DNA of 64,000 nt from a virus. The stretch is from the UHGV virus genome UHGV-1351279; one strand, 5' to 3'. The notes below the pieces were generated by a model. The model did no database searches. It was not told the DNA's origin and worked only from the letters and a program-made list of their open reading frames with translations. This document shows positions 1-37,600 of this stretch, piece after piece (position 1 is the first letter of the stretch; every line of letters begins with the position of its first letter). The position numbers were made by a program, and so were the translations under genes.

Positions 1-14
1 AAATACAAGAAAGA

Positions 15-32
15 GTGTGGGTTCTCTTGTAA
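15..32 (-). promoter_or_regulatory. copy 1 of a conserved ~18-nt motif GTGTGGGTTCTCTTGTAA. It faces a leftward gene that lies beyond the window start.
   Basis: Near-identical copies at 705-725 and 1257-1275, each 30-60 nt upstream of a leftward start codon. Confidence 0.3.
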
Positions 33-37
33 TTTGA

Positions 38-101
38 GGGTTTTAGAATAAAACCCGAAAGGGCTTGAAAAGCCCTATAAAAGAGCTTCCTGAAAGGAAG
101 C
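38..101. other. three consecutive short GC-stem hairpins with tGAAA-type loops (38-56 GGGTTTT/AAAACCC; 61-75 GGGCT/AGCCC; 85-101 GCTTCC/GGAAGC)
   Basis: Inverted repeats read directly from the sequence. They are GC-rich islands in AT-rich DNA. Confidence 0.35.
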
Positions 102-116
102 AATAAAAGGGTTAAT

Positions 117-138
117 TATACCATATATATTATGGTAT
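117..138. repeat. AT-rich perfect palindrome TACCATATATATTATGGTA, copy 1
   Basis: Self-complementary sequence. A second near-identical copy lies at 242-266. Confidence 0.45.
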
Positions 139-241
139 AGATAAAAGGGGAAATAAGGCTGCTGAGTTGACACTTATTTCAGGGAAGAGAAACCTTTCTA
201 TTTAGTAGACACTTATTAGCCCCCTTTATAGATAAAAGGTT

Positions 242-266
242 TATACCATATAATATATATGGTATA
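242..266. repeat. palindrome TATACCATATAATATATATGGTATA, copy 2
   Basis: Same arms as 117-138, about 125 bp away. This is a candidate pair of protein-binding sites. Confidence 0.45.
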
Positions 267-272
267 AAAATA

Positions 273-293
273 AAAGGGGATTTCTCCCCTTTT
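273..293. terminator. hairpin AAAGGGGA-tttc-TCCCCTTTT with A/T runs on both sides. It is the likely terminator of the leftward 451-672 unit.
   Basis: An 8-bp GC stem, with a U-run following on the minus strand (TTTTATTTTTAT). Confidence 0.5.
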
Positions 294-405
294 ATAGTAG
301 TGAAGTCCATAGGTAAGCTGCTGTTATAACAAATATAACAGCTATTAATCCTATTAGTTCACCATAATTATCCTCATCAATAAAGGAGTTTAAGAACTTT
401 TTCAT
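292..405 (-). CDS. possible 37-aa small membrane peptide (MKKFLNSFIDEDNYGELIGLIAVIFVITAAYLWTSLL). It is absent from the ORF track because it is under 60 aa.
   Basis: Hand translation of the reverse strand from ATG 405 to TAA 292. It has a single hydrophobic helix and lies between the 73-aa gene and the hairpin. Confidence 0.15.
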   Translation of the reverse strand: MKKFLNSFIDEDNYGELIGLIAVIFVITAAYLWTSLL

Positions 406-450
406 GATAATAATATTTAAGAGTTAAACAATAAAGGAGAAGAATGAGCA

Positions 451-672
451 TTAAAGCCCATTCTTCTTTTGATGCCAATCAAAGTATTTATTCATACTTT
501 GATTAGTTTCAAGACCCCATAACATAAGGTGACAGAGTATTATACCTGTAAAAGTATAAAACTCAAAAGTATCACCTTTAGGGTCAAGAACACCTACTAA
601 TGCAATGAAGACAGTAAGTGACAACAATAAAATTGTTGATTTAACATTGAAAAAGGATTTCCAAAAGTTCAT
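451..672 (-). CDS. small membrane protein (two hydrophobic helices), function unknown
   Basis: ORF track, ATG at 672. The conserved motif lies 33 nt upstream. Confidence 0.4.
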   Translation of the reverse strand: MNFWKSFFNVKSTILLLSLTVFIALVGVLDPKGDTFEFYTFTGIILCHLMLWGLETNQSMNKYFDWHQKKNGL

Positions 673-704
673 GATGTATAGTATTTAAGTTAATTCAAGA
701 AGAT

Positions 705-725
705 GTGTGGGTTCTTATAAACCCA
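705..725 (-). promoter_or_regulatory. copy 2 of the conserved motif (GTGTGGGTTCTTATAAACCCA), 33 nt upstream of the 73-aa gene start
   Basis: Aligned by eye with copies at 15-32 and 1257-1275. Confidence 0.3.
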
Positions 726-779
726 TCTTTCTGAAAGAAAGATGAAGAAAGGACTTGAGAATCAAGTCCTTTCTATGAG

Positions 780-1196
780 TTAGAATGGATATTCTAACTC
801 TTGTTGTGTAGGCACCATAGATTTTGCCCAATCTCCACTAATTAACTCCTTTAAGAATGTAGACCTCTCAAACAAGTTAACGAGTTCTTTATCTAAAGCA
901 CAACTTAGCTTAGGTCTTATACCATATTCATATAAGGTGTATACAGCTTCATTTGTGCTTACTGCAATACTATAAAAGTTCCAATCTCCTTTTATCTTAT
1001 CAAGATAATGGCCATGGTCTTTTAGGTATTGTAGAGCAACAAGAACATTTGATGTAGAGTCAAGAGAACCTGATGCCAAAGATTCAGAGACAAACACATC
1101 AAAGTTGTGTACAAAACTTTTGAAAGAGTTGCACAAAGAATCTGCCTTAGCAGGTATGGAAGATTCAAAAGAAGAAATGATAACTTCAAGTTCCAT
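780..1196 (-). CDS. hypothetical protein (138 aa)
   Basis: ORF track. ATG at 1194-1196. Confidence 0.45.
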   Translation of the reverse strand: MELEVIISSFESSIPAKADSLCNSFKSFVHNFDVFVSESLASGSLDSTSNVLVALQYLKDHGHYLDKIKGDWNFYSIAVSTNEAVYTLYEYGIRPKLSCALDKELVNLFERSTFLKELISGDWAKSMVPTQQELEYPF

Positions 1197-1212
1197 GATG
1201 TAAGTAATTTAG

Positions 1213-1240
1213 TACTCCCCCAAATATGGGAGGGGGAGTT
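1213..1240. other. GC-rich hairpin ACTCCCCC...GGGGGAGT in the 5' leader of the 138-aa leftward gene
   Basis: 8-bp C/G stem read from the sequence, 17-44 nt upstream of the minus-strand ATG. Confidence 0.35.
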
Positions 1241-1256
1241 TGTTATTCCAGAATTA

Positions 1257-1275
1257 GTGGGGGGTCTCTTGTAAA
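1257..1275 (-). promoter_or_regulatory. copy 3 of the conserved motif (GTGGGGGGTCTCTTGTAAA), 61 nt upstream of the 138-aa gene
   Basis: Aligned by eye with copies 1 and 2. Confidence 0.3.
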
Positions 1276-1379
1276 TAGGCTCACATCTTTATTCTCACTC
1301 ACAAAATCAAAAAATTTCCAGAAAAATTTTTTACTTTACTTTGTCATGTGATATTTTTTTTGTATCTTTGCCCCTGACC

Positions 1380-2160
1380 ACCACTACTGTTCTAAAAGTG
1401 GGTTCAGATGTAGCAGTAAACTGAAGAGTTCAAGATACATTTTAGTTGGTATATAATCCTAAAGAAGGTGTTTTATGGTTACTATTAGGAAAGTAGCTGA
1501 GTAGCAATAAGGCATTACATATTGGATAAGAGAGCCATAGGTCACAAAGTTTGATAGGTTATATAGGTTAGGGGAAAGTTCCTTAATTTGATAAGCTTCG
1601 GGTTAAGCAATATATAACTGATAAGTTCAATAAATTTCAGTACTACACCGCAGAACAGGTAGTCCCTTGAGAAAGGATATGGTACATAGTTGTTAAATTA
1701 GCACTGGATTAGTTATGCAACGGAAAGGCTCATAGAAGTCACCTGAGAGAGCTACAGGACTAAACAGGTTTAGCAAGCCAAAGCGGGGAGGGAATTTAGT
1801 AGTTTAGTGTACATAGATGAATTTGCATGCTAAGGAATTAGTATTGTTACACTAAGGGCAAATATCTAAGAGTATTATTTAATAATATGTTTGATTAGAT
1901 TGTAACCGCCTGAAAAGATAAAGAGCTTCAAACACACTTCACCATAAATCAAATGGTAAGTCACTAAGAGATTCTTTTGTTCCACTTTTTATTATGAGGA
2001 TTAACAAGGGTTAATACGAGATTTTAAGAAGGTTTGGGAGCGCGAAGGGCCTCTTAGGGAGGACTTTTTTGAGCTCTTCGGAGCGTAAAAAGAAAAGTTC
2101 ATGAAATGAAGTTTGATTTACGCGCGAAGGGCAAAAAGTTACTTTCGCAGATATTGTATA
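1380..2160. other. ORF-free, locally GC-enriched divergent intergenic region. It is a candidate structured ncRNA and/or replication origin.
   Basis: No ORF of 60 aa or more in any frame. GC-rich stems include UUCG-loop hairpins (GCTC-TTCG-GAGC at 2072-2084). GCGCGAAGGGC is directly repeated at 2040-2050 and 2122-2132. Confidence 0.25.
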
Positions 2161-2204
2161 GAATACTGATTGTTTTGTTGTATATATAAATGGTTAATTT
2201 TCAA

Positions 2205-2229
2205 GTGTTTAGATTAAATATCTAAACAC
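2205..2229. promoter_or_regulatory. perfect 10-bp inverted repeat GTGTTTAGAT-taaat-ATCTAAACAC. It is a candidate operator just upstream of the first rightward gene.
   Basis: Perfect palindrome read from the sequence. It sits ~25 nt upstream of a TAATTTTG -7-like motif. Confidence 0.4.
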
Positions 2230-2252
2230 TTTTTTTATTGATTAAAGTTTTG

Positions 2253-2260
2253 TAATTTTG
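2253..2260 (+). promoter_or_regulatory. TAATTTTG. It matches the Bacteroidota -7 consensus TAnnTTTG, 21 nt upstream of ATG 2282.
   Basis: The motif match is seen in the sequence. This 8-mer is expected by chance several times in AT-rich DNA, so support is weak. Confidence 0.25.
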
Positions 2261-2281
2261 TAGCGTTAAAGTTAAATAGTG

Positions 2282-2644
2282 ATGAAGGTAATAAGTAAGA
2301 GTATTGTTTTAAGTGGTTCTTTATATTATAGGAGACACTTAGAGTTAATAAACCCTATGTTACCAAGAAGGTTAACAGAGGGGGAGATTAATGTTTTATC
2401 AGAGTTTATGTTTTTGAAAGGTTTAGAGGATAAGTTTGATAAGACAGGTAGAAAGGCTGTGATGGATAAATTAGGTTTAAGCTTTAGTAGTTTGACTAAT
2501 TATTTATCTTCTTTAAGGAAGAAAGGTTTTATCATTAAGAATGCAATTGATAGTTATGATATTGTACCTATTTTATTGAGTGATAATGATAAGATGGTTT
2601 ATAACTTTAAGATAGAGAATTATGAAGAACAGGATAAGAACTAA
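2282..2644 (+). CDS. small early protein with a probable helix-turn-helix (KLGLSFSSLTNYLSSLRKKGFI). The ORF-track start at 2279 is GTG, and ATG 2282 is preferred.
   Basis: ORF track. HTH-like segment read by eye. It is the first gene of the rightward block. Confidence 0.4.
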   Translation: MKVISKSIVLSGSLYYRRHLELINPMLPRRLTEGEINVLSEFMFLKGLEDKFDKTGRKAVMDKLGLSFSSLTNYLSSLRKKGFIIKNAIDSYDIVPILLSDNDKMVYNFKIENYEEQDKN

Positions 2645-3011
2645 TGGGGTACATAGGGAAAGGTCTTATAGTTCTAAGACTTTTGATTATGTAAAGGATT
2701 GTTATTTTAAGGTTATAAGGGATAAGTATGAAGGTTTAGATTTCTGTCATTTTGAGATGATGGTAAATAGCCTTTTTGAGTATGTAAGGGAGTGTTTGGA
2801 TAGTTATGATTTCAAGAAGATTTATTTACAAGGTTTTTGTTATATGAAGCCACAAGCAAGGAGGATAGAGCTTATGACAAAAAAGTTAGAAGAGTTTGTG
2901 GAGAACAATAAAGATTCATTTACAGAGGAGTCAAGAAAAAGATATTTAATACACATAGAAAAATGCAAGAACTTTTTAAAGAACCATCAAGAAGAGCAAG
3001 ACCAACAGTAA
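2622..3011 (+). CDS. hypothetical protein (129 aa)
   Basis: ORF track. Overlaps the upstream gene by 23 nt. Confidence 0.4.
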   Translation: MKNRIRTNGVHRERSYSSKTFDYVKDCYFKVIRDKYEGLDFCHFEMMVNSLFEYVRECLDSYDFKKIYLQGFCYMKPQARRIELMTKKLEEFVENNKDSFTEESRKRYLIHIEKCKNFLKNHQEEQDQQ

Positions 3012-3376
3012 GGAATATATTGTCTTATATACAAGGTAATATAAGGTATAGGTTATATTATAGCAAGAAGCTTTATGGTGTTGATTTAAGTTGGCTATTA
3101 CCTAAGTGGCTGAAAGAGCAGATTGAGCTTAGGATAGATAGTATGGATAGGGAATGTTATAATAATGGGAGTTGTAAGATATGTGGTTGTAAGACTACAG
3201 AGTTACAATTTGCAGATAAAGCATGTGATAAGCCTTGTTACCCTTTTATGTTGAGTAAGAAGCAATGGTATATTTTTTGTGATACAGGATTAGTTTTTGA
3301 TGCTAAGACAGACATGTTTTGGCAGAAGAGGAATAGTAAATTCACTCCTTTTAAGGGGGTTGGTAAAAAGATATAA
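2963..3376 (+). CDS. Cys-rich hypothetical protein (CxxC-type cluster CKICGCK...C...C), possibly zinc-binding
   Basis: ORF track. Cys spacing read by eye. Confidence 0.4.
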   Translation: MQELFKEPSRRARPTVRNILSYIQGNIRYRLYYSKKLYGVDLSWLLPKWLKEQIELRIDSMDRECYNNGSCKICGCKTTELQFADKACDKPCYPFMLSKKQWYIFCDTGLVFDAKTDMFWQKRNSKFTPFKGVGKKI

Positions 3377-3378
3377 CA

Positions 3379-3678
3379 ATGAGTAAATTTAAAGAACAAG
3401 AGATAGATTTAGGAGTAATTAAAAGTGGCAGTAATGTACTTTTTAATTATGAGAGTATAGAGGATATAAAGGATAAGATTTCTTATGTAGAACCTGGTTG
3501 TGGAGGTTGTACTAAGATATTAGGTTATGATAATAAGCTTTTGAAAGTAAAGTTTGTATCAGGTAGTTTTCCTGTGCATATAAATAATGATAGGTACAGT
3601 GTCACAAAAGTTATAAGGGTTTATTATAAAGATGGTACAGAGGAAGAATTGAAATATAAAGCAATAATTTTTAAATAA
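3379..3678 (+). CDS. hypothetical protein (99 aa)
   Basis: ORF track. Its stop overlaps the next start (TAATG). Confidence 0.45.
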   Translation: MSKFKEQEIDLGVIKSGSNVLFNYESIEDIKDKISYVEPGCGGCTKILGYDNKLLKVKFVSGSFPVHINNDRYSVTKVIRVYYKDGTEEELKYKAIIFK

Positions 3679-4247
3679 TGAAAAAGTATACAGATGAGCA
3701 ATTGCTTAACAAGGTTAAGTCTTTGCAAGGTTTTAAAGGTATTCCTGATGGATATTGGATATTAGGATTACAGAGTAAAGAAGATAAGTTCAATGAGTTT
3801 GATGATAAGTTTTACCTTTTTAAGGGAGAAAAATTTATCATGGTAACTACAGGAACTACTAATGCTGGTCTTACAGGTTTAAAGAATTATGATACTTATA
3901 ATTCTGAGGGTTGTGCTGTTATTAAAACAGATGAGTGGTATTATAAGCTTTGGACACCTGGATTACATAAAGGTAAGATGAGGGCTTTAAAGCAAGCCAA
4001 TAATATTAAGTATTACAGGGATTGGAATAAGAATGAGAAGGTTGAGGAGATTGGAAAGTTAAGAGAAGGTATTATTGGTATTAACTTTCACACAGCAAGT
4101 TATCAACCTTATAATGTTATTACAAGGCTTATAGGAGGTTGGAGTACAGGTTGTCAGGTAGTTAATAATACAGCTGATTACTATAAGATATTGGATTTTA
4201 TAGGTAATCAAAAAGAAGTAAGTTATTGTTTAATCAAAGAGTTTTAA
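3678..4247 (+). CDS. hypothetical protein with a His...Cys pair (INFHTAS ... GGWSTGCQV). This resembles an L,D-transpeptidase/YkuD-type catalytic signature, so it may be a cell-wall-active enzyme.
   Basis: ORF track. Motif resemblance only. Confidence 0.45.
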   Translation: MKKYTDEQLLNKVKSLQGFKGIPDGYWILGLQSKEDKFNEFDDKFYLFKGEKFIMVTTGTTNAGLTGLKNYDTYNSEGCAVIKTDEWYYKLWTPGLHKGKMRALKQANNIKYYRDWNKNEKVEEIGKLREGIIGINFHTASYQPYNVITRLIGGWSTGCQVVNNTADYYKILDFIGNQKEVSYCLIKEF

Positions 4248-4248
4248 T

Positions 4249-4455
4249 ATGAAAGTTATAGAAGTATTTGTAGTAAAGACCTATGACAAGGTAAGTTCTA
4301 AGGTTGAGTTTTTGTTTATTGACAGGAAAGACTACTTTATTGATTCAGTTCTTTATGAGGAGCTAAACAGAGTTTCTTATGCTGATGCTTGTAAGAAGTT
4401 CAAGCAGAAGAACCCTTTACCTGTTGATAGTGAGTATAAATTTATTATAAGTTAG
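4249..4455 (+). CDS. hypothetical protein (68 aa)
   Basis: ORF track. Tightly packed. Confidence 0.35.
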   Translation: MKVIEVFVVKTYDKVSSKVEFLFIDRKDYFIDSVLYEELNRVSYADACKKFKQKNPLPVDSEYKFIIS

Positions 4456-4457
4456 TT

Positions 4458-4826
4458 ATGGCATATATTATGATTAATGGCAATAAAGTATATTGGGAAG
4501 ATTATTTAGAGTTAGCTAAAAAGTTAAAAGAAATAGATGATTTACCTAAGATTGTATCTGGTACTGTAAGTTGGAGTAAAGATAAAAAAGAACTAAAAAC
4601 TGTAGATGGCTCTTCTGCTTTAGATAATAAGAAGAGAGAATATCCAAAGCATGTCTTGATTGAGAGAAGTGTTGTAAAAAATGTGTATGAGTTTAACTTT
4701 ATTGACTTAGAGACTAAAGAGTTTTATTGGAGCTTTTATAGTGACAGCTTAAATTACAATGTAGCTAAGAAAGCCTTTGAAGGTGTGTTTAAATATAAAG
4801 GAGTAAAATATTATTTAGAGGAGTAA
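4458..4826 (+). CDS. hypothetical protein (122 aa)
   Basis: ORF track. Confidence 0.45.
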   Translation: MAYIMINGNKVYWEDYLELAKKLKEIDDLPKIVSGTVSWSKDKKELKTVDGSSALDNKKREYPKHVLIERSVVKNVYEFNFIDLETKEFYWSFYSDSLNYNVAKKAFEGVFKYKGVKYYLEE

Positions 4827-5380
4827 TGGCATATTTATTTGTATTAGAGAATAACATAGCCAGACCACATCCTGAAACTGTTTTGATTGAACCTTTTAAG
4901 ACTATATGGGAGAGAGATACAAACAGAGATAAATCTAATGCAATCAGGGATTTTACCTTTATTGAACTTATGAGCAGTAAAAGGAAGACTAATCCTTATG
5001 CTGGATATAGTGATAAGCAAAGATTTGAAAAATTAAAGGAGATGCTTAAGTATCCAGCAAATTGGCAGCCTGATGATGAGATTAAGTTTGCTTTGTATAA
5101 GATAGAAGAGTTTCAGACAGAAGGGAGTTTTAACTATGTTATGTATAAACAGTCTTTAGAGACATTGATAAAGACACGAGAATACCTTTTAAATATTGAC
5201 CTTAATGAGAGAACTAAGTCAGGGATACCTGTATATAAACCAGCTGATGTGTATTCTGCTATTGAGAAAGTAGAAAAGATTATGACTTCACTAAATAACT
5301 TAAAAGAAAAGGTAGACCAGGAATTGTTTGACCAAACAAGGACAAGAGGTAATAAAACTATTAATCCATTAGAAAATTAA
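4826..5380 (+). CDS. hypothetical protein (184 aa). It is a positional candidate for a small terminase subunit.
   Basis: ORF track. The position upstream of the large terminase is the only argument. Confidence 0.45.
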   Translation: MAYLFVLENNIARPHPETVLIEPFKTIWERDTNRDKSNAIRDFTFIELMSSKRKTNPYAGYSDKQRFEKLKEMLKYPANWQPDDEIKFALYKIEEFQTEGSFNYVMYKQSLETLIKTREYLLNIDLNERTKSGIPVYKPADVYSAIEKVEKIMTSLNNLKEKVDQELFDQTRTRGNKTINPLEN

Positions 5381-5381
5381 T

Positions 5382-5594
5382 ATGAAAAGAACAGCAAAAG
5401 AAATAGATAACTTTAAAGAATTTAAACAAGAATATTTTGATTATAATGAGTTTCTAATAAAAGGTAATAAGGATAAGCTTAAATCTTTTTATGATGAGGG
5501 TGTAAAGTTACATTTTATTAGAGAGGTTGTAGATTTGAAATTTCCTATAACTATAGTTGGTAACAGAACAATTCATTTTGAATTAGATGAGTAA
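5382..5594 (+). CDS. hypothetical protein (70 aa)
   Basis: ORF track. Overlaps the next gene by 8 nt. Confidence 0.35.
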   Translation: MKRTAKEIDNFKEFKQEYFDYNEFLIKGNKDKLKSFYDEGVKLHFIREVVDLKFPITIVGNRTIHFELDE

Positions 5595-7779
5595 GATTAG
5601 AGATAATAATGGTAGATGGAAAGATACTTCTGTGTTTAGACAAGAAGCCATAAGGTTTCTTGAGAAAGGCTATTACACAGAAGCTCCTTATGGTACTCCT
5701 GAGTGGCTTGAATATTGGAAAGAGCAACTCAGGAGGTGCATAGAGGGTTATGAGGTATATGGAGAAAAAATTACAGGACATCACTATTGTTATCTCAACT
5801 TTGCTCAGATATTAAAAATGAAGTTTGATGATGAAGATGAAGAAGAGACATTAGCTACAAAAGAGGTTAGTTTTCCAGACTTTTGGGATGGTGATTATAA
5901 TTTCTTCTGGTCATTAGAAATAGCAAGGAATGGTATATGTTCCTCAATGACTCAAGTTCCGAGTAGGCCTAATGAAAGAAAAGAGTGGAATGAGCTTAAT
6001 AAGAAACTAAAGAAGTTAGAAACTGACAATGAAGAGTATGATAAGGTAAAAAAGAAAAGGGATAATATATCTCAAAAGATACTTGATAGATTAGGTTTAT
6101 TTGTAAAACCTCACTTAGATTACCTTAATGGAGGTTACCACTTTGTAGTAGGTAAAGCACGTCGTAGAGGTTATTCTTATAAGACATCTCTTATAATAGC
6201 TAATATATACAATACTATAAGGAATAAACTTTCTTTAATAGGTGCTTATGAAAAGAAGTTCATTGACCAAACAATGGATAAAACATTAGAGTATTTGAAC
6301 TTCTTTAATGAGTATACAGGCTTTTCTAAGAACAGATTAGTTGATAAGAAGAACTTTATAAAAGCTGGCTATATAGAAGAGGTTAATGGGGTTAATGTAG
6401 AAAAAGGTTATAAATCTGTAATTGATGCTACAAGAACTTTTAAAGATAATCCTGATGCCATGCGTGGTGTGGATGCCTTTTTTATATTACTTGAAGAGGT
6501 TGGTGCTTTTGATAATCTAAAAGACTCTTTTAATGCTATTGCACCTTCACTTACAGCAGGTAGTAAGATTACAGGACAGATATGTTTGATTGGTACTTCA
6601 GGAGACCTTTTAGGGGGTACTAAGGATTATGCTGATATGTTTTTTAATCCTATACCCTATGGATTTATGCCTTTTATAAATATATGGGATAAAGATGCTG
6701 AGGATACTACTTGTGGCTTTTTTCACCCTATTAGTTGGAATCTTGAAGGTTTCTATGATGAGCAAGGTAATTCTGATATAGAAGCTGCTACAATTTGGGA
6801 AAACCAAAGAAGAAAAAAACTTTTGGATAATTCTACAAATAGCTTAATTTTGCAGAAGCATATTCAAGAGTTTCCTTTATGTCCTGCTGATGCTTTTAGT
6901 ATGGCAAATATTAATGTATTTCCTACTGTAGAGCTAAGAAACAGGCTTAATAAAGTAATGTCAGGAAACTTGCATTTAAAGATGGGAACTCCTGTAGAAC
7001 TCTTTTTTGAAGAAGGTAAGGTAGTAGCTAAACCAGATTTAAAGAATAAATTACAACCTATATGGAATTACAGACCTAAAGATAATAATTTAGAGGGTTG
7101 TCCTATAATATATGAATATCCTATAAAATCAGCACCAAAGGGTCTCTATAAAATAGGGTTTGACCCATATAGACAAGATTTATCTAATGGTGTTTCTTTG
7201 GGGGCCATATATGTCTTTAAAGGAGTACATAAAGGTAGTATGACTAAGAATTGTATAGTAGCTCAATATGTAGGAAGACCTCAAGAAAGTGATGATGTAT
7301 CAAGGATAGCCATGATGTTTGCTATATTATATAATACAGAAGTTATGTTTGAGAATGAGGTAACTCATGTAAAGAACTACTTTAGGAGAATGAATAGGCT
7401 TGATTTATTAGCTTTACAGCCTGATAGGGTAATTTCTAATAATATAAAAAACTCAAAGGTAGCTCGTGTGTATGGTTGTCACATGAATGAAAAGATGAAA
7501 GATGCTGGAGAGAAGTATATAAAGGATTGGTTACTTGAAGTACAAGAATATGATGAGAATGGTAATCCAATAACTACAATAGATTCTATATATGATATAG
7601 GATTATTAGAGGAGTTAATAGCTTATAACAGAAAGGTAAATGTTGACAGAGTCATGGCATTAATGCAAGTAATGTTTCAAAGACAGGAAGAACAACTTGA
7701 CAAGGTTTATGATGAGGATAGAAAAGATAGGATAGCAGAGGTTTTTGAAGTATTAAAAGGTTTTTATAGAAAAAGATAA
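5587..7779 (+). CDS. terminase large subunit (ATPase plus RNase H-like nuclease)
   Basis: Deviant Walker A VVGKARRRGYSYKTS (K-x-R-R-x-G-x-S type, as in lambda gpA-like terminases). Nuclease-domain signature KIGFDPYRQD (GhDP...D). 730 aa, immediately upstream of the portal. Confidence 0.5.
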   Translation: MSKIRDNNGRWKDTSVFRQEAIRFLEKGYYTEAPYGTPEWLEYWKEQLRRCIEGYEVYGEKITGHHYCYLNFAQILKMKFDDEDEEETLATKEVSFPDFWDGDYNFFWSLEIARNGICSSMTQVPSRPNERKEWNELNKKLKKLETDNEEYDKVKKKRDNISQKILDRLGLFVKPHLDYLNGGYHFVVGKARRRGYSYKTSLIIANIYNTIRNKLSLIGAYEKKFIDQTMDKTLEYLNFFNEYTGFSKNRLVDKKNFIKAGYIEEVNGVNVEKGYKSVIDATRTFKDNPDAMRGVDAFFILLEEVGAFDNLKDSFNAIAPSLTAGSKITGQICLIGTSGDLLGGTKDYADMFFNPIPYGFMPFINIWDKDAEDTTCGFFHPISWNLEGFYDEQGNSDIEAATIWENQRRKKLLDNSTNSLILQKHIQEFPLCPADAFSMANINVFPTVELRNRLNKVMSGNLHLKMGTPVELFFEEGKVVAKPDLKNKLQPIWNYRPKDNNLEGCPIIYEYPIKSAPKGLYKIGFDPYRQDLSNGVSLGAIYVFKGVHKGSMTKNCIVAQYVGRPQESDDVSRIAMMFAILYNTEVMFENEVTHVKNYFRRMNRLDLLALQPDRVISNNIKNSKVARVYGCHMNEKMKDAGEKYIKDWLLEVQEYDENGNPITTIDSIYDIGLLEELIAYNRKVNVDRVMALMQVMFQRQEEQLDKVYDEDRKDRIAEVFEVLKGFYRKR

Positions 7780-7781
7780 CT

Positions 7782-10202
7782 ATGGATAAAAAGAGATTAT
7801 CAAGAGCGCAAAAGGAAGCTAATGATTTTGCATGGTTTAAAGAACAAATAGATTTATATGATAGGTCTTCTTTTTCTTCTTCAAGATTTGATGGTCAAGA
7901 TGGCATTGTTTCTGAGTGGAGAAAAATGAAGATTAACTATGATTTATTTAATAACAGAATTAATGCAAAAGACTTTGAGTATGTATGTCAGCCTTATGGT
8001 GAGAGTGTAGGAAAACTACCATTAGATTTTACTAACAAAGATATTTTATCTGGAAAGATAAAAGCTATGTTAGGTATGGAAATGAGAAGACCTTTTTCCT
8101 GGAAAGTAGTTGCTGTTAATGAAGAAGCTACTACAAGAAGGGAACAAGAGGAGTTTGAGCAAATTAAACAGTTTGTAATAAATAGTATTACAGCTCCTAT
8201 AAGGCAACAATTAGAGCTTGAACAGATGCAACAAGCTCAAGGTAGAGAACTTACTGAAGAGGAGAAACAACAAATGCAACAACAGATAGAAGAGGAGATG
8301 AAAACAAGAACTCCTCCTGAAGTTGGTTTGTATATGGAAAGAGAGCATCAAGACCCAGCAGAGATATTATCTCATCAGATATTAGAATATTTGATGGAAG
8401 AGCAAAATATCAGAGAGAAATTCAATAGAGCATGGAAGCATGGTCTTATAAGTGGTAAAGAGATATTTTGGGTTGGAGAAGTTAATGGTAAACCTATGGT
8501 AAAGGTAATAAACCCTTTAAGGTTTGACTATGATAGAAACTCAGATAACCATTATATAGAAGAAGGTGAGTGGGGTTGTTATGAGATGTATTTAACTCCT
8601 TCACAGATTATAAGCCACTTTGGAGATGAGCTTACTGAAAAACAGATTGATGATATTTATAGTAACTTTCAAGAAGGTGCTGTAGTTAATTCTGAATTTA
8701 CCTTTAGAGATGAGTATTTTGAAGCTTATGGAGTAAGGGTAATACATTGTGAGTGGAAAGCACCAAAGGCTGTAAAATTTGTATCTGGAGTGGATTTAGA
8801 GACAGGAGAGCCTTATGAGTTCTTAGTTGATGAGACCTACCAAATAAATAGGGAAGCTGGAGATTTAGAGGTTATAAAGAAATGGATACCTTCTAAATTT
8901 GAAGGCTATAAAATAGGTAAAGACATTTATGTAGGTATGAGAGAAGTACCAGGTCAAAATAAAGATTTGGATAATCTCTATAATTGTAGGCTTTCTTATA
9001 TAGGTGCTTGTTATGATAATATGAACTCTGAAAGTACTTCTTTAGTAGATAGAATGAAGTACTATCAATACATGTATAATATATTAATGTATAAGATAGA
9101 GCTTTTGATTTCTTCTGATGAAGGAAAAACCCTTTTATTGGATGGTAGTATCATACCTAAATCAGCAGGTATTAAGACAGAGGAATGGATTTATGACTTT
9201 AAGGTAAATAAATTAGGTATAGTAAATTCTAATGAGGAAGGTAGCAGATACAATGATATTACTCAATCTGTAAAAGAGATTGACTTATCTCTAATGTCTG
9301 ATATACAAAAGTACATAGAATTAGCAGAATATGTAGAAAGGAGATGTGGTGAATCTGTAGGTATTACAAAACAAATAGAAGGACAAATTGGAGGTAATGA
9401 AGCTGTAAGAAATACTCAACAAGCAATTATACAATCAGCTAATATATTAGAACCTTATTTTGAGGTTCATAGTATAGTTAAGAAGAATGTATTACAATCT
9501 CTTATTGAGGTAGCTAAAGTAGCTTATTTGACTTACCAACCATCACATTTAAACTATGTTCTTGATGATATGTCAAGAAAGATGGTCACTATGGATTATG
9601 ACCTTTTAGAGAATAGTACTTATGGTGTGTTTGTAAATAATAGTACTAAGGCTGATGAAGCTCTACAGATGGTACAACAACTCTCTCATGCAGCTATGCA
9701 AAATCAAACTATTGAGATGTCTGATTTGATTAAGGTAATGAGAAGTCAATCTATACCTGAAGCTGAAGAACTCCTTAAAAGAGCTGAAAAAGAAAGAAGA
9801 GAGTTTATGCAACAGCAACAACAGCAAGAACAACAAGCTCAACAAGAGTTACAGCAAGCTCAACAGCAATTTGAGAAAGACCTTAAATATATGGAACACC
9901 AATTTAAGATGGAAGAGATTGAGAAGAAAGGTGAGCTTGATATACAGAAGCAAGCTATACTTTCTATTGGGTTTAATGAAGATAAAGACCTTGATAAAGA
10001 TGGTGTACCAGATGTTCTTGAAGTTGCTAAGTTCGGTGTAGATGCTAATGTAAAAGCTGAAAACATAAAACTACAAAGAGAGAAGTTAGATTATCAAAAA
10101 GAGAAAGATAGAAAACAAGAAAAACTAATGGAAAGAAAACTTGATATTGAGGATAAAAAAGCACAATCTCAAGTACTAAAAGCTAAAGTTAGTGCTAATT
10201 AA
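7782..10202 (+). CDS. portal protein (806 aa) with a Q-rich coiled-coil C-terminal region
   Basis: Size and position directly after the terminase. Low-complexity QQQQQQEQQAQQELQQAQQQ at ~9810-9870. No motif-level proof. Confidence 0.4.
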   Translation: MDKKRLSRAQKEANDFAWFKEQIDLYDRSSFSSSRFDGQDGIVSEWRKMKINYDLFNNRINAKDFEYVCQPYGESVGKLPLDFTNKDILSGKIKAMLGMEMRRPFSWKVVAVNEEATTRREQEEFEQIKQFVINSITAPIRQQLELEQMQQAQGRELTEEEKQQMQQQIEEEMKTRTPPEVGLYMEREHQDPAEILSHQILEYLMEEQNIREKFNRAWKHGLISGKEIFWVGEVNGKPMVKVINPLRFDYDRNSDNHYIEEGEWGCYEMYLTPSQIISHFGDELTEKQIDDIYSNFQEGAVVNSEFTFRDEYFEAYGVRVIHCEWKAPKAVKFVSGVDLETGEPYEFLVDETYQINREAGDLEVIKKWIPSKFEGYKIGKDIYVGMREVPGQNKDLDNLYNCRLSYIGACYDNMNSESTSLVDRMKYYQYMYNILMYKIELLISSDEGKTLLLDGSIIPKSAGIKTEEWIYDFKVNKLGIVNSNEEGSRYNDITQSVKEIDLSLMSDIQKYIELAEYVERRCGESVGITKQIEGQIGGNEAVRNTQQAIIQSANILEPYFEVHSIVKKNVLQSLIEVAKVAYLTYQPSHLNYVLDDMSRKMVTMDYDLLENSTYGVFVNNSTKADEALQMVQQLSHAAMQNQTIEMSDLIKVMRSQSIPEAEELLKRAEKERREFMQQQQQQEQQAQQELQQAQQQFEKDLKYMEHQFKMEEIEKKGELDIQKQAILSIGFNEDKDLDKDGVPDVLEVAKFGVDANVKAENIKLQREKLDYQKEKDRKQEKLMERKLDIEDKKAQSQVLKAKVSAN

Positions 10203-34669: not shown

Positions 34670-37600
34670 ATGGAAAAACCAAGTAACAATGATAAAAAAG
34701 TAGCTTTAAATTCTTTATTTAATGCTATTGATAGAACTGTACAAGAAGATAGTAGAAAAAGAGTTGGTGGTCATAAAACAGTTAGAGACCTTGAAAAAAC
34801 TTTAGGTATAAAAGCTAACTCTATATCTACTTATAATGACCAAATGTCAGAAGTAAAAAGACTTGTTGGTGCTGATGCTTTTGTAGATACAGGAATAGAC
34901 TATACACAAAATCTTGCAGCTAACCAATCAGACTCTGAAGCTTTTACAAGAGGTGCTGCAATGCTTGGTAAAGGATTTGTTTCTGGAGCTTTACAAAGCT
35001 TTGCTTCATGGGATTTTGGTTCTATAAGAGATATGGCTACAGGAGATACCTCAAAGGAATTTGGAAATGCTCTTACTGAATCTTCATTAGCTAAATGGGC
35101 TAAAGACATGACAGGTTTAGAAATATACCAAAATGGAGATGATTTTGGTTCTTCTAAATATTGGGCAAGATTTATAGGACAACAAGGATTTACTCTTGGT
35201 ATTATGGCTGAAATGGCTTTAGAACAAGGTTTATTAGCCTATGTTACAGGAGGTGCTGGTAATGTTGCTGGAGCTGCTTCTAAGTCAAGATTGATATATA
35301 ATTTACTTACAGGAGTTAATGGTCTTTATGGAGGTGTTAGGGAAGCTTGGATGAATGGTTTAGAAACACAAGAGAATACATATAATAAGTATATACAATT
35401 AGGATTTGACCAAGAAACAGCTAAAAAAAGAGCTTCTGAAGCTGCTGCCATAGGTTTTAGAATGGAAGTAGGTCCTATAATGCTTCTTAATGGTATACAA
35501 TCAATGGCTACTTTTGGTAGATTTGCTTCTAAAGGTTTAAATAAGGCTTTAGAAGAAAGTATGGATTTTGGTGTGTCTAGTGCTGTAGGTAAGTTAGGAA
35601 GTATATTTGAAAAATCAAGTAATAAATTTGTAAGAAATGCGGGAATGCTTTTTACAGATTCAGTTTCAGAAGGTGTAGAAGAAGGTTATCAAACTTGGGC
35701 TGGTAATTATGCTCAAGATGAATTACAAAAAAGGCATCTTGGTTTTGGTACAGATGAACCTTTTTGGAATGAAGAAATGAGAGACTCTATTCTAATGGGT
35801 GCTTTATCTGGAGGTATGATGGCTGGGTTTGGTAAAGCTGTACAAAAATTTGGTGATTGGTATAGTGGAAGAAGTAAAGCTATTAATGAAGCTACAGAAG
35901 CTTTCATGAAAGATGTTACAAGTAATTCTGTAACAGCTATAAAAGAACTTAATGATGCTTCTTTAGCTTATCAAAAAGCCTTTGAAACTTATAATAAAGA
36001 TAAAACTAAAGATAACAGAAAAGCTATGAATGAAGCTAAGAAAAACCTTATCATAGCTCAAGAAAAACAAGGTACAGCTCAAGTGTTAGAAGCTATGGAG
36101 TTGGACCATTTAAAAGGTAATGAGAATAATGAAGTATTTAATGCTCATATAGAACAGATAGATAATGCTATAAAAGCTCTACAATCCAATGACACTGATA
36201 AATTAAAAGGTCTTGGATTTATAGATGAAAATGGTCAATCTGTAACAGGTCTTACTAATGCTGAAATGATAAAAATGCTACAATCTGATAAGGATAAAGC
36301 ATTAAAAACTAAGAAAAGATTTGAAGACCATTACCAACATACTACTACAGACTTAGGTACTATTAAAAAATTAGTAACTATTGAAACTAAGATAGATACC
36401 TTTGAAGAAATGAAAAAAGAAGTTGAAGGTAAGATTGGTAACTACAGAAATGGTAATCAAGTTTACTCTCAACTCTCTGAAGATGGTAAAGAACTTTATG
36501 GCCTTTATTTGAGAAAGAATGCTCTTGAAGGTCTTAAAGAAAGGGGAGGTATATCTAAAAATCAAGAAGTAGAACTTGATACTATTAATCATAAATTACA
36601 ATCTATAGCAGATGCCAATGGTAAGAAAAATGTAAATGATTTATACTCTGTTCAAGATGCAAATATTTTGAGGAGAGACATGATAGGTATACAAGCTCAA
36701 CAAGAGAATTATATAGAACATTATGCTTATGAGACTGAAATAGATAAGTTATATGAAAGTCTTGAGCATAATAGCAAGCAAGATGTCATAAAACAAAATA
36801 TAAAAGAAAGAAGAAAAGCTCAAAGAGAAGCTGCTAAAGCTGTAAGAGATTTTAATAAACTTGAGAGAGAGCAAGAAAAAGAAAGAAAAAGATTAGAGAA
36901 AGAAAAAGCTAAAGCTAAGAATAAAGAAGAGAAAGAGAAAGCTCAGAAAGAAATAGATGAGTTAGCTAAGGAACAAAAAGAAACTCAAGAGAAAAAAGAT
37001 AAAGCTCAAAAAATAGAGTCTATAGAGAATGAGACAGGTAATAAAGCTTCTGATACGGAGAAAGAAGAACTTATAAATAATGGAAACTTTATATATGCAG
37101 AGGAAGATACTGCATATAAATTTGATTTTGAAGAAGGGATTGTACCAGAAGAACCTACTAAAGAACCTACTGAAACTACAGACAATGCAGTAGAAGAAGC
37201 TATGAGTTTAAAAGAACTTATAGCTAAAGGGTTAATAAAATTAGGAGTACCTACACCAGCTGATGTATCCCCTTTTGATGATGATGGTGTAGATATTGAT
37301 GCTAATAATGAAGACTTTGCTTTTACTCCTATAGATGATTCTGAACCTGTAATATATACAGAACCTTTTGAAATTATAGATTTTGATGCTAATGCTAATC
37401 TTGAAGGGGATTTTGAAAGTAGGAGAGAAACTGCTATAAAATTTGTTCAAGAGATATTAAAAGAATTAGGATTAGATGAACCAGATTTTGAAGACTATAT
37501 AAAATACTTTATAGATAGAAAAGGTAAAAAAATTACTGATGATGTGTTTCCTGGTCTTGTAAAAATGTGGGAATTAGCAGGCTATAGTCTTGATAATGTA

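What the first reader, a model, noticed from the sequence alone, without database searches (positions are those of the whole stretch)
1197..2278. 1.08-kb non-coding divergent region with locally GC-rich structured segments, UUCG-loop hairpins and a direct repeat. It is a candidate origin and/or structured ncRNA.
This is by far the largest gap in an otherwise gene-saturated genome. It lies between the divergent leftward and rightward blocks. The 1380-2160 part is visibly GC-richer than its surroundings and has many short GC stems. These include textbook UUCG tetraloop hairpins (GCUC-UUCG-GAGC at 2072-2084 and AGCUUCGGGU near 1605). GCGCGAAGGGC occurs twice, 82 bp apart (2040-2050 and 2122-2132). 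A perfect 10-bp inverted repeat lies at 2205-2229. This composition is unlike the coding DNA and suggests a functional RNA or an iteron-type origin rather than spacer.
Basis: seen in the sequence. Interest (0 to 1): 0.55.

Follow-up and report, generated by a model that had tools for sequence, protein, structure and literature searches.

The report
New large structured phage RNA gene
The 1.08-kb "empty" stretch of this crAss-like phage genome is a self-contained gene, with its own promoter and terminator, for an about 860-nucleotide folded non-coding RNA that matches no catalogued RNA family and whose function is unknown.

Summary
The gap at 1197-2278 is real and has no ORF. It is not an iteron origin. 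Most of it (about 1371-2238, + strand) is a separate transcription unit. It starts at a perfect Bacteroidota-type promoter (TTTG-N19-TAtcTTTG, 1340-1370) and ends at an intrinsic terminator (2203-2236). The operon promoter follows immediately.

Within close relatives the RNA is as conserved as the terminase gene (93-95%; core 95-100%). Against a 70%-identical lineage it shows invariant blocks, hairpins replaced wholesale, and compensatory changes. Of 229 predicted pairs, 42 change on both sides, against 18±3 in shuffles and 3-9 in slid controls. These include helices whose strands lie about 270-380 nt apart.

Two further lineages carry 0.9-1.1-kb RNAs in the same slot with the same 5' hairpins, but homology models support the link only weakly. 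Rfam 15, ARAGORN, GenBank phages and the searchable literature give no match.

My best reading is a new family of large, multi-domain, probably trans-acting phage RNA of the GOLLD/ROOL kind. The biochemical role is unresolved.

The 11-nt repeat copies are arms of two helices. The inverted repeat is the terminator.

The parts
1214..1239 (-). Inverted repeat ACTCCCCC-N10-GGGGGAGT in the 5' leader of the leftward 138-aa gene. It lies outside the RNA gene.
   Evidence: Read from the sequence. Conserved in lineage A. A C/G-run counterpart is present in L008.
1257..1274 (-). Motif GTGGGGGGTCTCTTGTAA (as written on the + strand). It is repeated at 15-32, with a shorter form at 703-718, each time just upstream of a leftward gene. 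Candidate promoter or operator of the leftward block.
   Evidence: 2 exact pattern matches, 0.08 expected. The third copy was found by eye. Function is inferred.
1340..1370 (+). Promoter of the RNA gene: -33 TTTG (1340-1343), 19-nt spacer, -7 TATCTTTG (1363-1370).
   Evidence: regex. Conserved in all lineage A and C loci. The same motif precedes the RNAs of lineages B and D. The Bacteroidota consensus is from my own knowledge (Bayley et al. 2000).
1371..2238 (+). The about 860-nt non-coding RNA. The start is inferred a few nt after the -7 box, about 1373-1380. The 3' end is inferred in the U-tract at 2232-2238.
   Evidence: No ORF. Conservation. Covariation. The + strand consensus fold is much more stable than the - strand fold.
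1376..1543 (+). Domain I. It is closed by GACC (1376-1379) / GGTC (1540-1543) and contains P1 (1381-1385 / 1397-1401, 11-nt loop ACUGUUCUAAA), P2 (1406-1412 / 1436-1442 plus 1419-1422 / 1427-1430) and a variable hairpin (1467-1516).
   Evidence: P1 and P2 stems differ between lineages but stay paired.
1534..1680 (+). Ultra-conserved core: 95-100% identical within lineage A and 94% identical to lineage C. It holds hairpins 1557-1619 (with branch 1595-1608) and 1665-1676 (CCUU/AAGG).
1549..1933 (+). Central domain, built from nested long-range helices: 1549-1554/1928-1933, 1624-1628/1923-1927, 1635-1640/1910-1915 (two compensatory pairs) and 1783-1786/1906-1909. Replaceable peripheral hairpins lie at about 1680-1775 and 1795-1855.
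   Evidence: In L001, 1680-1770 is replaced by a different, longer insert.
1975..2129 (+). 3' domain, closed by 1975-1982 / 2122-2129 (repeat copy 2 supplies the 3' arm). It contains hairpins 1984-2032, 2037-2077 (repeat copy 1, 2040-2050, is in the 5' arm and pairs with the T-run at 2066-2071) and 2089-2119.
   Evidence: This domain is the least conserved between lineages.
2203..2236 (+). Intrinsic terminator: 12-bp stem (2203-2214 / 2220-2231), 5-nt loop, then a T-run of seven (2230-2236, the first two in the stem).
   Evidence: Compensatory G:C to A:U change within lineage A, and further changes in lineage C (helix 36).
2253..2260 (+). -7 box TAATTTTG of the promoter of the rightward operon. 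Its first gene (2279/2282-2644) encodes a 120-aa protein with sub-threshold winged-helix matches.
   Evidence: In lineages B and D the terminator's T-run plus a G supplies the -33 TTTG of this promoter.

Best explanation
Positions about 1371-2238 (+ strand) are an independent gene for a large, multi-domain structured non-coding RNA of a crAss-like phage that infects a Bacteroidota host.

**Shown**
- A consensus host-type promoter lies directly upstream, and a covarying intrinsic terminator lies at the 3' end.
- There is no coding capacity.
- Nucleotide conservation is at or above that of the terminase gene.
- The covariation-supported fold has three domains with nested long-range helices. Invariant junction and core segments alternate with freely replaceable peripheral hairpins.

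**Inferred**
- Host RNA polymerase transcribes the gene as soon as the genome enters the cell.
- The RNA is released at its terminator and folds into a compact particle.
- It acts in trans as an RNA or RNA-protein machine or scaffold, in the manner of the large 'ornate' phage-associated RNAs GOLLD and ROOL. It is not a DNA element and not an mRNA leader.
- Its biochemical activity is unknown.

My confidence that it is a structured RNA gene is about 0.9. My confidence that it acts in trans as a folded particle is about 0.55-0.6.
For: **A separate transcription unit**
- The promoter TTTG-N19-TAnnTTTG lies at 1340-1370.
- The terminator lies at 2203-2236 and shows compensatory changes.
- A second promoter follows for the downstream operon.
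- The same promoter-RNA-terminator-promoter layout occurs in four lineages.

**Non-coding**
-.

**Conservation**
- RNA identity to lineage A relatives is 93-95%, and 95-100% in the core.
- TerL is 93% identical, neighbouring genes 80-92%, and the left gene 70-72%.
- Against lineage C, the core is 94% identical and TerL 85%, while peripheral hairpins cannot be aligned.

**Covariation, lineages A + C**
- 229 pairs; 42 change on both sides, against 18.4±3.0 in shuffles (0 of 500 reach it) and 3-9 in slid controls.
- 95.8% of cells are paired, against 35-46% in slid controls.
- The long-range helix 1635-1640/1910-1915 has two compensatory pairs.

**Covariation, lineage B**
- 27 of 150 pairs change on both sides, against 11.4±2.5 in shuffles (0 of 500).

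**Strand**
- The consensus fold is -127.8 kcal/mol on the + strand and -86.7 on the - strand. My count from the table gives about 30 pairs whose commonest form is G:U, which would be C·A on the other strand.

**Not a known family**
- Rfam 15 gives no hit at the gathering threshold, and only unrelated chance hits at E<=10, in three lineages.
- ARAGORN finds nothing.
- GenBank phage records hold no match.
Against: - There is no expression data for this phage. The transcript, its ends and its abundance are inferred from sequence signals only.
- A close relative by neighbouring proteins (L161, 82% aa identity) and three others (L165-L167) lack a recognisable copy, so the RNA is not essential to the clade or is replaced there.
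- No partner protein gene within 6-9 kb tracks the presence of the RNA.
- Homology between lineages A/C, D and B rests on synteny, architecture and short motifs. Covariance-model tests were only marginal, with E of 0.05-0.5.
- The covariation rests on few independent lineages (about 3 per alignment), and each structure was predicted from the same alignment on which it was counted.
- Trans action cannot be told apart from a cis role with these tools.
Confidence: 0.6

Rival explanations
1. Cis-acting regulatory transcript of the rightward (packaging and structural) operon. The long structured RNA would control the operon through terminator read-through, antitermination, or transcriptional interference with the promoter that abuts its terminator.
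For: - The RNA gene always sits immediately upstream of the operon promoter.
- In lineages B and D the terminator's U-tract plus a G is the -33 TTTG of that promoter.
- It has the same orientation as the operon.
- The first downstream gene in A, C, L008 and L019 is a small protein with sub-threshold winged-helix matches.
Against: - A strong terminator that covaries, and a separate consensus -7 box, make the two units formally independent.
- About 860 nt of multi-domain structure with invariant junctions is far more than known cis antitermination or leader elements need.
- The first downstream gene differs between lineages.
Confidence: 0.15
2. Replication-origin transcript. The RNA would form an R-loop or be processed into a primer, or its transcription would activate an origin at the divergent junction, as with ColE1 RNA II, the T4 oriF/oriG R-loops, or the T7 primary origin.
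For: - It sits at the junction of the divergent gene blocks, where GC skew changes sign.
- The leftward block of relative L161 carries RepL-domain genes about 3 kb away.
- An invariant G-rich segment GCGGGGAGGGAA lies at 1783-1794.
- An AT-rich stretch lies at 2150-2280.
Against: - The RNA ends at a conserved intrinsic terminator, so it is released rather than left hybridised to DNA.
- There are no iterons, tandem repeats or DnaA-type boxes.
- The skew switch is fully explained by gene orientation, since the same flip occurs at 58.7 kb.
- Invariant cores with replaceable peripheral hairpins are typical of RNAs that work as folded particles.
Confidence: 0.12
3. A divergent member of an already known RNA class: tmRNA, group I or II intron, RNase P, GOLLD, ROOL, OLE, or an RT-associated template RNA.
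For: - The crAss-like phage phi14:2 has an ARAGORN-predicted tmRNA inside one of its abundant 'lncRNA' regions.
- Large phage RNAs such as GOLLD and ROOL exist (abstract listed).
Against: - Rfam 15 (4227 models) gives nothing above chance in lineages A, B or D, and no family recurs between them.
- ARAGORN is negative.
- There are no flanking exons.
- No tRNA genes occur in the window.
- No reverse-transcriptase match appeared among the 10 proteins nearest the RNA.
- The whole 64-kb window was not scanned for a reverse transcriptase.
Confidence: 0.04
4. A DNA-level element only (iteron origin, packaging site, protein-binding array) or neutral spacer or decayed genes, with no functional RNA.
For: - It is the largest non-coding gap in the window.
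- Two 11-nt direct repeats are present.
- The record of the cultured relative Fpv1 starts near the equivalent junction.
Against: - Compensatory changes occur in helices up to about 380 nt apart, and there are many G:U pairs that exist on one strand only.
- A promoter and a terminator bracket the region.
- Conservation exceeds that of coding DNA.
- There are no repeat arrays.
Confidence: 0.03

Closest known systems
GOLLD and ROOL RNAs (large 'ornate' structured RNAs, often carried by phages and prophages)
   Same: - Size class of about 0.6-0.9 kb.
- Carried by a phage.
- Many helices with long-range pairings.
- Mosaic of invariant and variable parts.
- No known biochemical function.
   Different: - No match to their Rfam models, even at E<=10.
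- No neighbouring tRNA genes.
- A fixed genomic slot at the divergent junction of crAss-like phages, with its own Bacteroidota promoter and terminator.
- Homo-oligomeric cage formation, reported for GOLLD and ROOL (PMC12286853 abstract), is untested here.
Abundant long non-coding RNAs of the crAss-like phage phi14:2 (Drobysheva et al., bioRxiv 10.1101/2020.03.07.982082)
   Same: - A crAss-like phage of a Bacteroidota host.
- About 1-1.7 kb of non-coding DNA near the start of a gene block.
- In phi14:2 the regions are transcribed more strongly than most genes, from the earliest time point and throughout infection. Their function is stated as unknown.
   Different: - No similarity by nhmmer or by the covariance models.
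- The phi14:2 regions lie inside the rightward early block, not at the junction before the terminase operon.
- They have no TTTG/TAnnTTTG promoter.
- One of them contains an ARAGORN-predicted tmRNA.
ColE1 RNA II and T4 origin R-loop transcripts
   Same: A long structured transcript made by host RNA polymerase in a non-coding region, which could lie at a replication origin.
   Different: - This RNA ends at an intrinsic terminator.
- No antisense partner and no origin features were found.
phi29 pRNA (packaging RNA)
   Same: A phage-encoded, stand-alone structured RNA gene with its own promoter, placed near the packaging genes.
   Different: - About five times longer, with no sequence or structure match in Rfam.
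- crAss-like phages use a conventional large terminase.
- Nothing links this RNA to the portal.

Membership tests
GOLLD / ROOL / OLE / HEARO / raiA and all other Rfam 15 families | Score at or above the family's gathering threshold against its covariance model | tested here: not met
   - No hits in the whole window or in 10 related loci.
- E<=10 scans of the RNA in lineages A, D and B give only unrelated chance hits, with no family in common.
GOLLD / ROOL | Frequent adjacency to tRNA genes in phage or prophage DNA | tested here: not met
   ARAGORN finds no tRNA in the 64-kb window or in 7 related loci.
GOLLD / ROOL / OLE | Homo-oligomeric RNA-only assembly | not testable with these tools
   Needs cryo-EM or native gels of the in vitro transcript.
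tmRNA | tRNA-like domain (acceptor stem plus T-arm) together with a tag-peptide reading frame | tested here: not met
   - ARAGORN is negative on the window and on lineages B, C and D, while it does call a tmRNA in phi14:2.
- No Rfam tmRNA hit.
Group I / group II self-splicing intron | Conserved catalytic core, and insertion within a host gene with flanking exons | tested here: not met
   - No Rfam intron hit.
- The unit is flanked by a promoter and a terminator, not by exons.
Iteron-type replication origin | Three or more direct repeats of about 17-22 bp, usually next to an AT-rich unwinding element | tested here: not met
   - TRF finds no arrays.
- The repeat finder reports only two-copy families of 10-20 nt.
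- The two 11-mers are helix arms.
ColE1-type primer RNA origin | The transcript stays hybridised at the origin and is cut to prime DNA synthesis, and an antisense RNA controls it | not testable with these tools
   The conserved intrinsic terminator argues against it only indirectly.
Independent bacterial-type RNA gene (generic) | Own promoter, own terminator, no ORF | tested here: met
   All three features are conserved in 4 lineages.
Structured RNA (generic) | Significant covariation that supports a conserved secondary structure | tested here: met
   - 42 pairs change on both sides, against 18.4±3.0 in shuffles (0 of 500) and 3-9 in slid controls.
- 27 pairs, against 11.4±2.5 (0 of 500).
- Caveat: few lineages, and each structure was derived from the alignment it was counted on.
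phi14:2 lncRNAs | Sequence or structure homology and the same genomic position | tested here: not met
   - nhmmer and covariance models R1 and R2 find nothing in phi14:2 2905-4601.
- The genomic position differs.

The most novel reading that the evidence does not exclude
This would be a previously unrecognised class of large RNA with an activity of its own. It could be a ribozyme, a self-assembling RNA particle, or an RNA cofactor or decoy. crAss-like phages would deploy it from the first minutes of infection, for example to capture a host factor or defence sensor, or to work with the phage's unusual virion RNA polymerase. A cultured relative or an in vitro transcript would make this directly testable.
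Probability: 0.2. Interest if true: 0.85.

Novelty: new variant of a known kind. Interest (0 to 1): 0.68.

Why it matters
- Only about a dozen bacterial or phage RNA classes longer than about 500 nt with complex conserved structure are known (my own knowledge). Each one studied so far has turned out to be a ribozyme, a ribonucleoprotein core or an RNA-only assembly.
- crAss-like phages are among the most abundant viruses associated with humans, yet their non-coding content is essentially unstudied.
- This is a well-delimited RNA gene of about 0.9 kb with mapped helices, promoter and terminator. It gives a concrete object for transcript mapping, chemical probing, cryo-EM and pull-downs.
- It suggests that the long 'intergenic' regions seen in this phage group hold RNA genes rather than spacer.

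Tried and rejected
- **Stop-codon recoding to rescue an ORF.** Rejected: every frame holds all three stop types.
- **Known RNA families.** Rfam gathering and E<=10 scans on three lineages, and ARAGORN, gave nothing.
- **DNA similarity to GenBank phages, using the A, B and D RNAs.** No match.
- **Iterons, tandem repeats and DnaA boxes.** None in the region.
- **GC skew as an origin signal.** It is confounded by gene orientation.
- **Antisense targets of the RNA within the window.** The 12-14-mer matches are at chance level.
- **A partner gene that co-occurs with the RNA.** None within 6-9 kb.
- **Homology to the phi14:2 lncRNAs and to the large gaps in other relatives (L019, L029, L035, L060, L062, L067, L073, L161, L165-L167, Fpv1).**
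  - No hits by nhmmer (all of them), by a P1-hairpin descriptor scan (all except Fpv1, which was checked by eye), or by covariance models run on most of them.
  - These gaps were not characterised further.
- **Proving homology of lineages A/C, B and D.**
  - k-mer colinearity statistics were not discriminating in this AT-rich sequence.
  - Three covariance models gave only marginal hits, though at the right positions.
- **Metagenome scan with a 23-nt core motif.** It returned only duplicates of lineage A.
- **The T-run at 2066-2071 after hairpin 2050-2062, flagged as terminator-like.** Rejected as a terminator: the T-run is the 3' arm of a longer covarying helix.
Full report
**Setting**

The window is a crAss-like phage.
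- It encodes a large terminase (5587-7779), a portal (7782-10202) and giant ORFs of up to 4508 aa.
- Its relatives' capsid genes hit Pfam Crass_capsid.
- The nearest cultured relatives by TerL are Flavobacterium psychrophilum phages, at 51% aa identity.
- The finding lies where a leftward block of small genes (ending at ATG 1196) meets the rightward block that leads into the terminase operon.

**Check of the observation**

Confirmed:
- 1197-2278 has no ORF of 60 aa or more.
- Each of the six frames holds 2-18 copies of each of TAA, TAG and TGA, so recoding cannot explain the gap.
- It is the largest gap in the window.
- The 11-mer GCGCGAAGGGC is present twice, and the inverted repeat is present at 2203-2231 with 12-bp arms.

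Weaker than stated:
- The GC rise is modest, 0.35-0.40 against about 0.30.
- Single-sequence folding is only mildly better than shuffles.

Not upheld:
- The two 'UUCG tetraloops' do not survive comparison with relatives.

**Anatomy**

Reading left to right:
- **(i) 1197-1339** belongs to the leftward gene's upstream region. It holds a C5/G5 inverted repeat (1214-1239). It also holds the motif GTGGGGGGTCTCTTGTAA (1257-1274), which recurs upstream of the other leftward genes.
- **(ii) 1340-1370** is an exact match to the Bacteroidota primary-sigma promoter consensus, TTTG-N19-TAnnTTTG. The consensus is from my own knowledge (Bayley et al. 2000); the match is.
- **(iii) About 1371-2238** is the RNA.
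- **(iv) 2203-2236** is a stem-loop plus U-tract terminator.
- **(v) 2253-2260** is the -7 box of the next promoter, followed by the first rightward gene at 2279/2282.

**Comparative evidence within lineage A**

- Seven IMG/VR contigs, plus four metagenome contigs that duplicate their RNA sequences, carry the same locus.
- The RNA is 93-95% identical to these relatives, and the core at 1535-1680 is 95-100% identical.
- For comparison, TerL is 93% identical, the neighbouring genes 80-92%, and the leftward gene 70-72%.
- Differences cluster in a few segments (1467-1520 and 1680-1775). In L001, 1680-1770 is replaced by a different, longer insert.
- Stems show compensatory changes, including in the terminator.

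**Lineage C**

- I found lineage C through a 71%-identical homologue of the downstream 120-aa protein.
- It aligns to RNA positions 4-749 at about 70% identity.
- Long invariant blocks alternate with hairpins that cannot be aligned.

**Covariation**

For lineages A + C, RNAalifold predicts 229 pairs. The pair counts are:

| Measure | Observed | Shuffles | Slid controls |
|---|---|---|---|
| Pairs changed on both sides | 42 | 18.4±3.0 (0 of 500 reach it) | 3-9 |
| Cells paired | 95.8% | 91.3±0.3% | 35-46% |

- The fold has three domains (coordinates).
  - Domain I is 1376-1543.
  - The central domain is built from nested long-range helices: 1549/1933, 1624/1927, 1635/1915 (two compensatory pairs) and 1783/1909.
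  - The 3' domain is 1975-2129.
- The + strand consensus fold is far more stable than the - strand fold, -127.8 against -86.7 kcal/mol.
- My count from the table gives about 30 pairs whose commonest form is G:U. This fixes the strand, in agreement with the promoter and the terminator.
- Caveats: there are only about three independent lineages, and the structure was predicted on the same alignment it was counted on.

- Copy 1 (2040-2050) is in the 5' arm of helix 2037-2053/2058-2077 and pairs with the T-run.
- Copy 2 (2122-2129) is the 3' arm of the helix that closes the 3' domain, pairing with 1975-1982.
- In L002-L006 both copies read GCGCGAGAGGC. The A/G swaps lie opposite U, so A:U and G:U simply exchange.
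- Those loci appear to form one sub-clade (my inference from the alignment), so the 'concerted' change needs only one branch. It remains a curiosity.
- The terminator-like site at 2050-2075 is therefore part of a helix, not a terminator.

**Wider family**

- *Lineage B* comprises L008/L163, L020/L021/L168 and L024/L025/L162. TerL is about 66% identical to the window.
- *Lineage D* is L164, whose neighbouring 184-aa protein is 69% identical.
- Both have non-coding stretches at the same junction. The intergenic gaps are 1.3-1.9 kb and the RNAs about 0.9-1.1 kb. Both show the same promoter-RNA-terminator-promoter layout.
- Their RNAs are not detectable with nhmmer profiles of A/C.
- They begin in the same way as A/C:
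  - a leader that pairs about 160-180 nt downstream (seen by eye in lineage B; recovered automatically in L008, L163 and L164);
  - a 5-6-bp hairpin P1 with an 11-nt loop AC-N7-A-R, found with seven different stem sequences, all paired;
  - a bipartite hairpin P2.
- Lineage D also shares short motifs with both sides. With C it shares CCCUUAGGCAAGG. With B it shares AUAGUUCCAAAAA and AGCAAGGCA. With A it shares UAACCGCC.
- Lineage B has its own covariation support: 27 of 150 pairs, against 11.4±2.5 in shuffles.

Objective cross-lineage tests are only marginal:

| Model | Built from | Result |
|---|---|---|
| R1 | B | Best hit in window 1-6000 falls exactly at 1371-1463, E 0.064 |
| R2 | A/C/D | Finds L024 at the right place, rank 2, E 0.53; misses L020 and L008 |
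| R3 | A/C core | Hits L164 colinearly, E 0.052 |

I treat the A-C link as proven, D as likely and B as probable. L161 and L165-L167 lack a recognisable copy.

**What it is not**

- Rfam 15 gives nothing.
- ARAGORN gives nothing.
- GenBank phage records hold no match.
- There are no iterons and no DnaA boxes.
- There are no antisense targets in the window above chance.
- No partner gene co-occurs with the RNA.
- The searchable literature holds no description of it. A large viral structured-RNA survey reports only elements of 29-151 nt.
- The nearest experimental parallel is phi14:2. There, two long intergenic regions are transcribed above most genes from the earliest time point, and their function is unknown.
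  - They are not detectably homologous to this RNA.
  - One of them contains an ARAGORN-predicted tmRNA.

**Mechanism**

Shown:
- It is a bracketed, non-coding, strongly conserved transcription unit whose structure is supported by covariation.

Inferred:
- Host RNA polymerase transcribes it from genome entry.
- It is released at the terminator.
- It folds into a multi-domain particle.
- It acts in trans.

Rivals:
- The cis-regulatory and origin-transcript readings remain possible, at about 0.15 and 0.12.
- The terminator, the separate operon promoter, the size, and the pattern of invariant cores with swappable hairpins argue against both.

**Verdict**

This is a real and well-delimited feature. 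It is a new family of large structured phage RNA, of the same kind as GOLLD and ROOL but not a member of either. Its function is unknown. Interest 0.68.

Noticed in passing
window 15-32, 703-718, 1257-1274: The motif GTG[T/G]GGG[T/G]TCTCTTGTAA (a shorter form at 703-718) sits just upstream of each leftward gene or operon and nowhere else in the 64 kb (2 exact pattern matches, 0.08 expected). Read on the minus strand it is a candidate promoter or operator of the leftward, presumably early, genes. Related G-rich motifs occur in L008 and three to four times in Flavobacterium phage Fpv1.
   Followed up: partly
window 1214-1239: Inverted repeat ACTCCCCC-N10-GGGGGAGT in the 5' leader of the leftward 138-aa gene. 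It is conserved in lineage A, and L008 has a C/G-run counterpart. Its role is unknown.
   Followed up: no
L091 (phi14:2, NC_021806) 4031-4500: ARAGORN predicts a tmRNA (tag GSSVQKLAMVA*) inside the g005-g006 intergenic region, which was published as an abundant lncRNA of unknown function. Its 5' part is about 80% identical to a feature annotated 'tmRNA' in Cellulophaga phages Calle_1-3. Rfam did not report it at the gathering threshold.
   Followed up: partly
L015 and L016, 7001-10276: In two close relatives the TerL match spans 3276 nt instead of 2190 nt. This implies an insertion of about 1.1 kb in the terminase gene, possibly an intron, an intein or a homing-endonuclease gene.
   Followed up: no
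L001 / L171, equivalent to window 1680-1770: One lineage A variant has this peripheral part of the RNA replaced by an unrelated insert about 90 nt longer, while both flanks stay 95-100% identical. This is a domain swap within the RNA.
   Followed up: partly
window 1371-1380: The window and L007/L011 lack 4 nt (GTCA) that all other lineage A and C RNAs carry in the 5' leader (CCCCTGTCAGACC versus CCCCTGACC). This changes which downstream segment gives the longest pairing with the leader in a simple helix search.
   Followed up: no
L164 3076-3104 and 3205-3232: The lineage D RNA has a direct repeat of about 28 nt (GTGCAGATGGATGT[G/A]CATAGCTT(T)CGCG) about 130 nt apart in its 3' domain. This echoes the window's 11-nt pair, so duplicated modules may be a feature of the 3' domain.
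   Followed up: no
L161 232-765 (also 1-229); junction 2706-4308: A relative whose neighbouring protein is 82% identical carries RepL-domain genes in the leftward block. It lacks a recognisable copy of the RNA, and has an extra 159-aa leftward gene and an uncharacterised 800-nt gap instead.
   Followed up: partly
L164, L167, L165, L019, L073 junction regions: Many relatives have non-coding stretches of 1-1.9 kb at or near the same junction. L167 has two stretches of about 1.35 kb. Apart from L164, which carries the lineage D RNA, these match none of the RNA lineages and may be other RNA genes.
   Followed up: partly
window 746-800: Back-to-back terminator-like hairpins on both strands lie between the leftward genes (746-774 on the minus strand, 777-800 on the plus strand).
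   Followed up: no
window 34670-48196 and 48190-53592: A 4508-aa ORF is followed by an overlapping 1800-aa ORF listed with a TTG start. The 4508-aa ORF is in the size range of the large virion-packaged RNA polymerase proteins reported for crAss-like phages. I did not examine either ORF.
   Followed up: no
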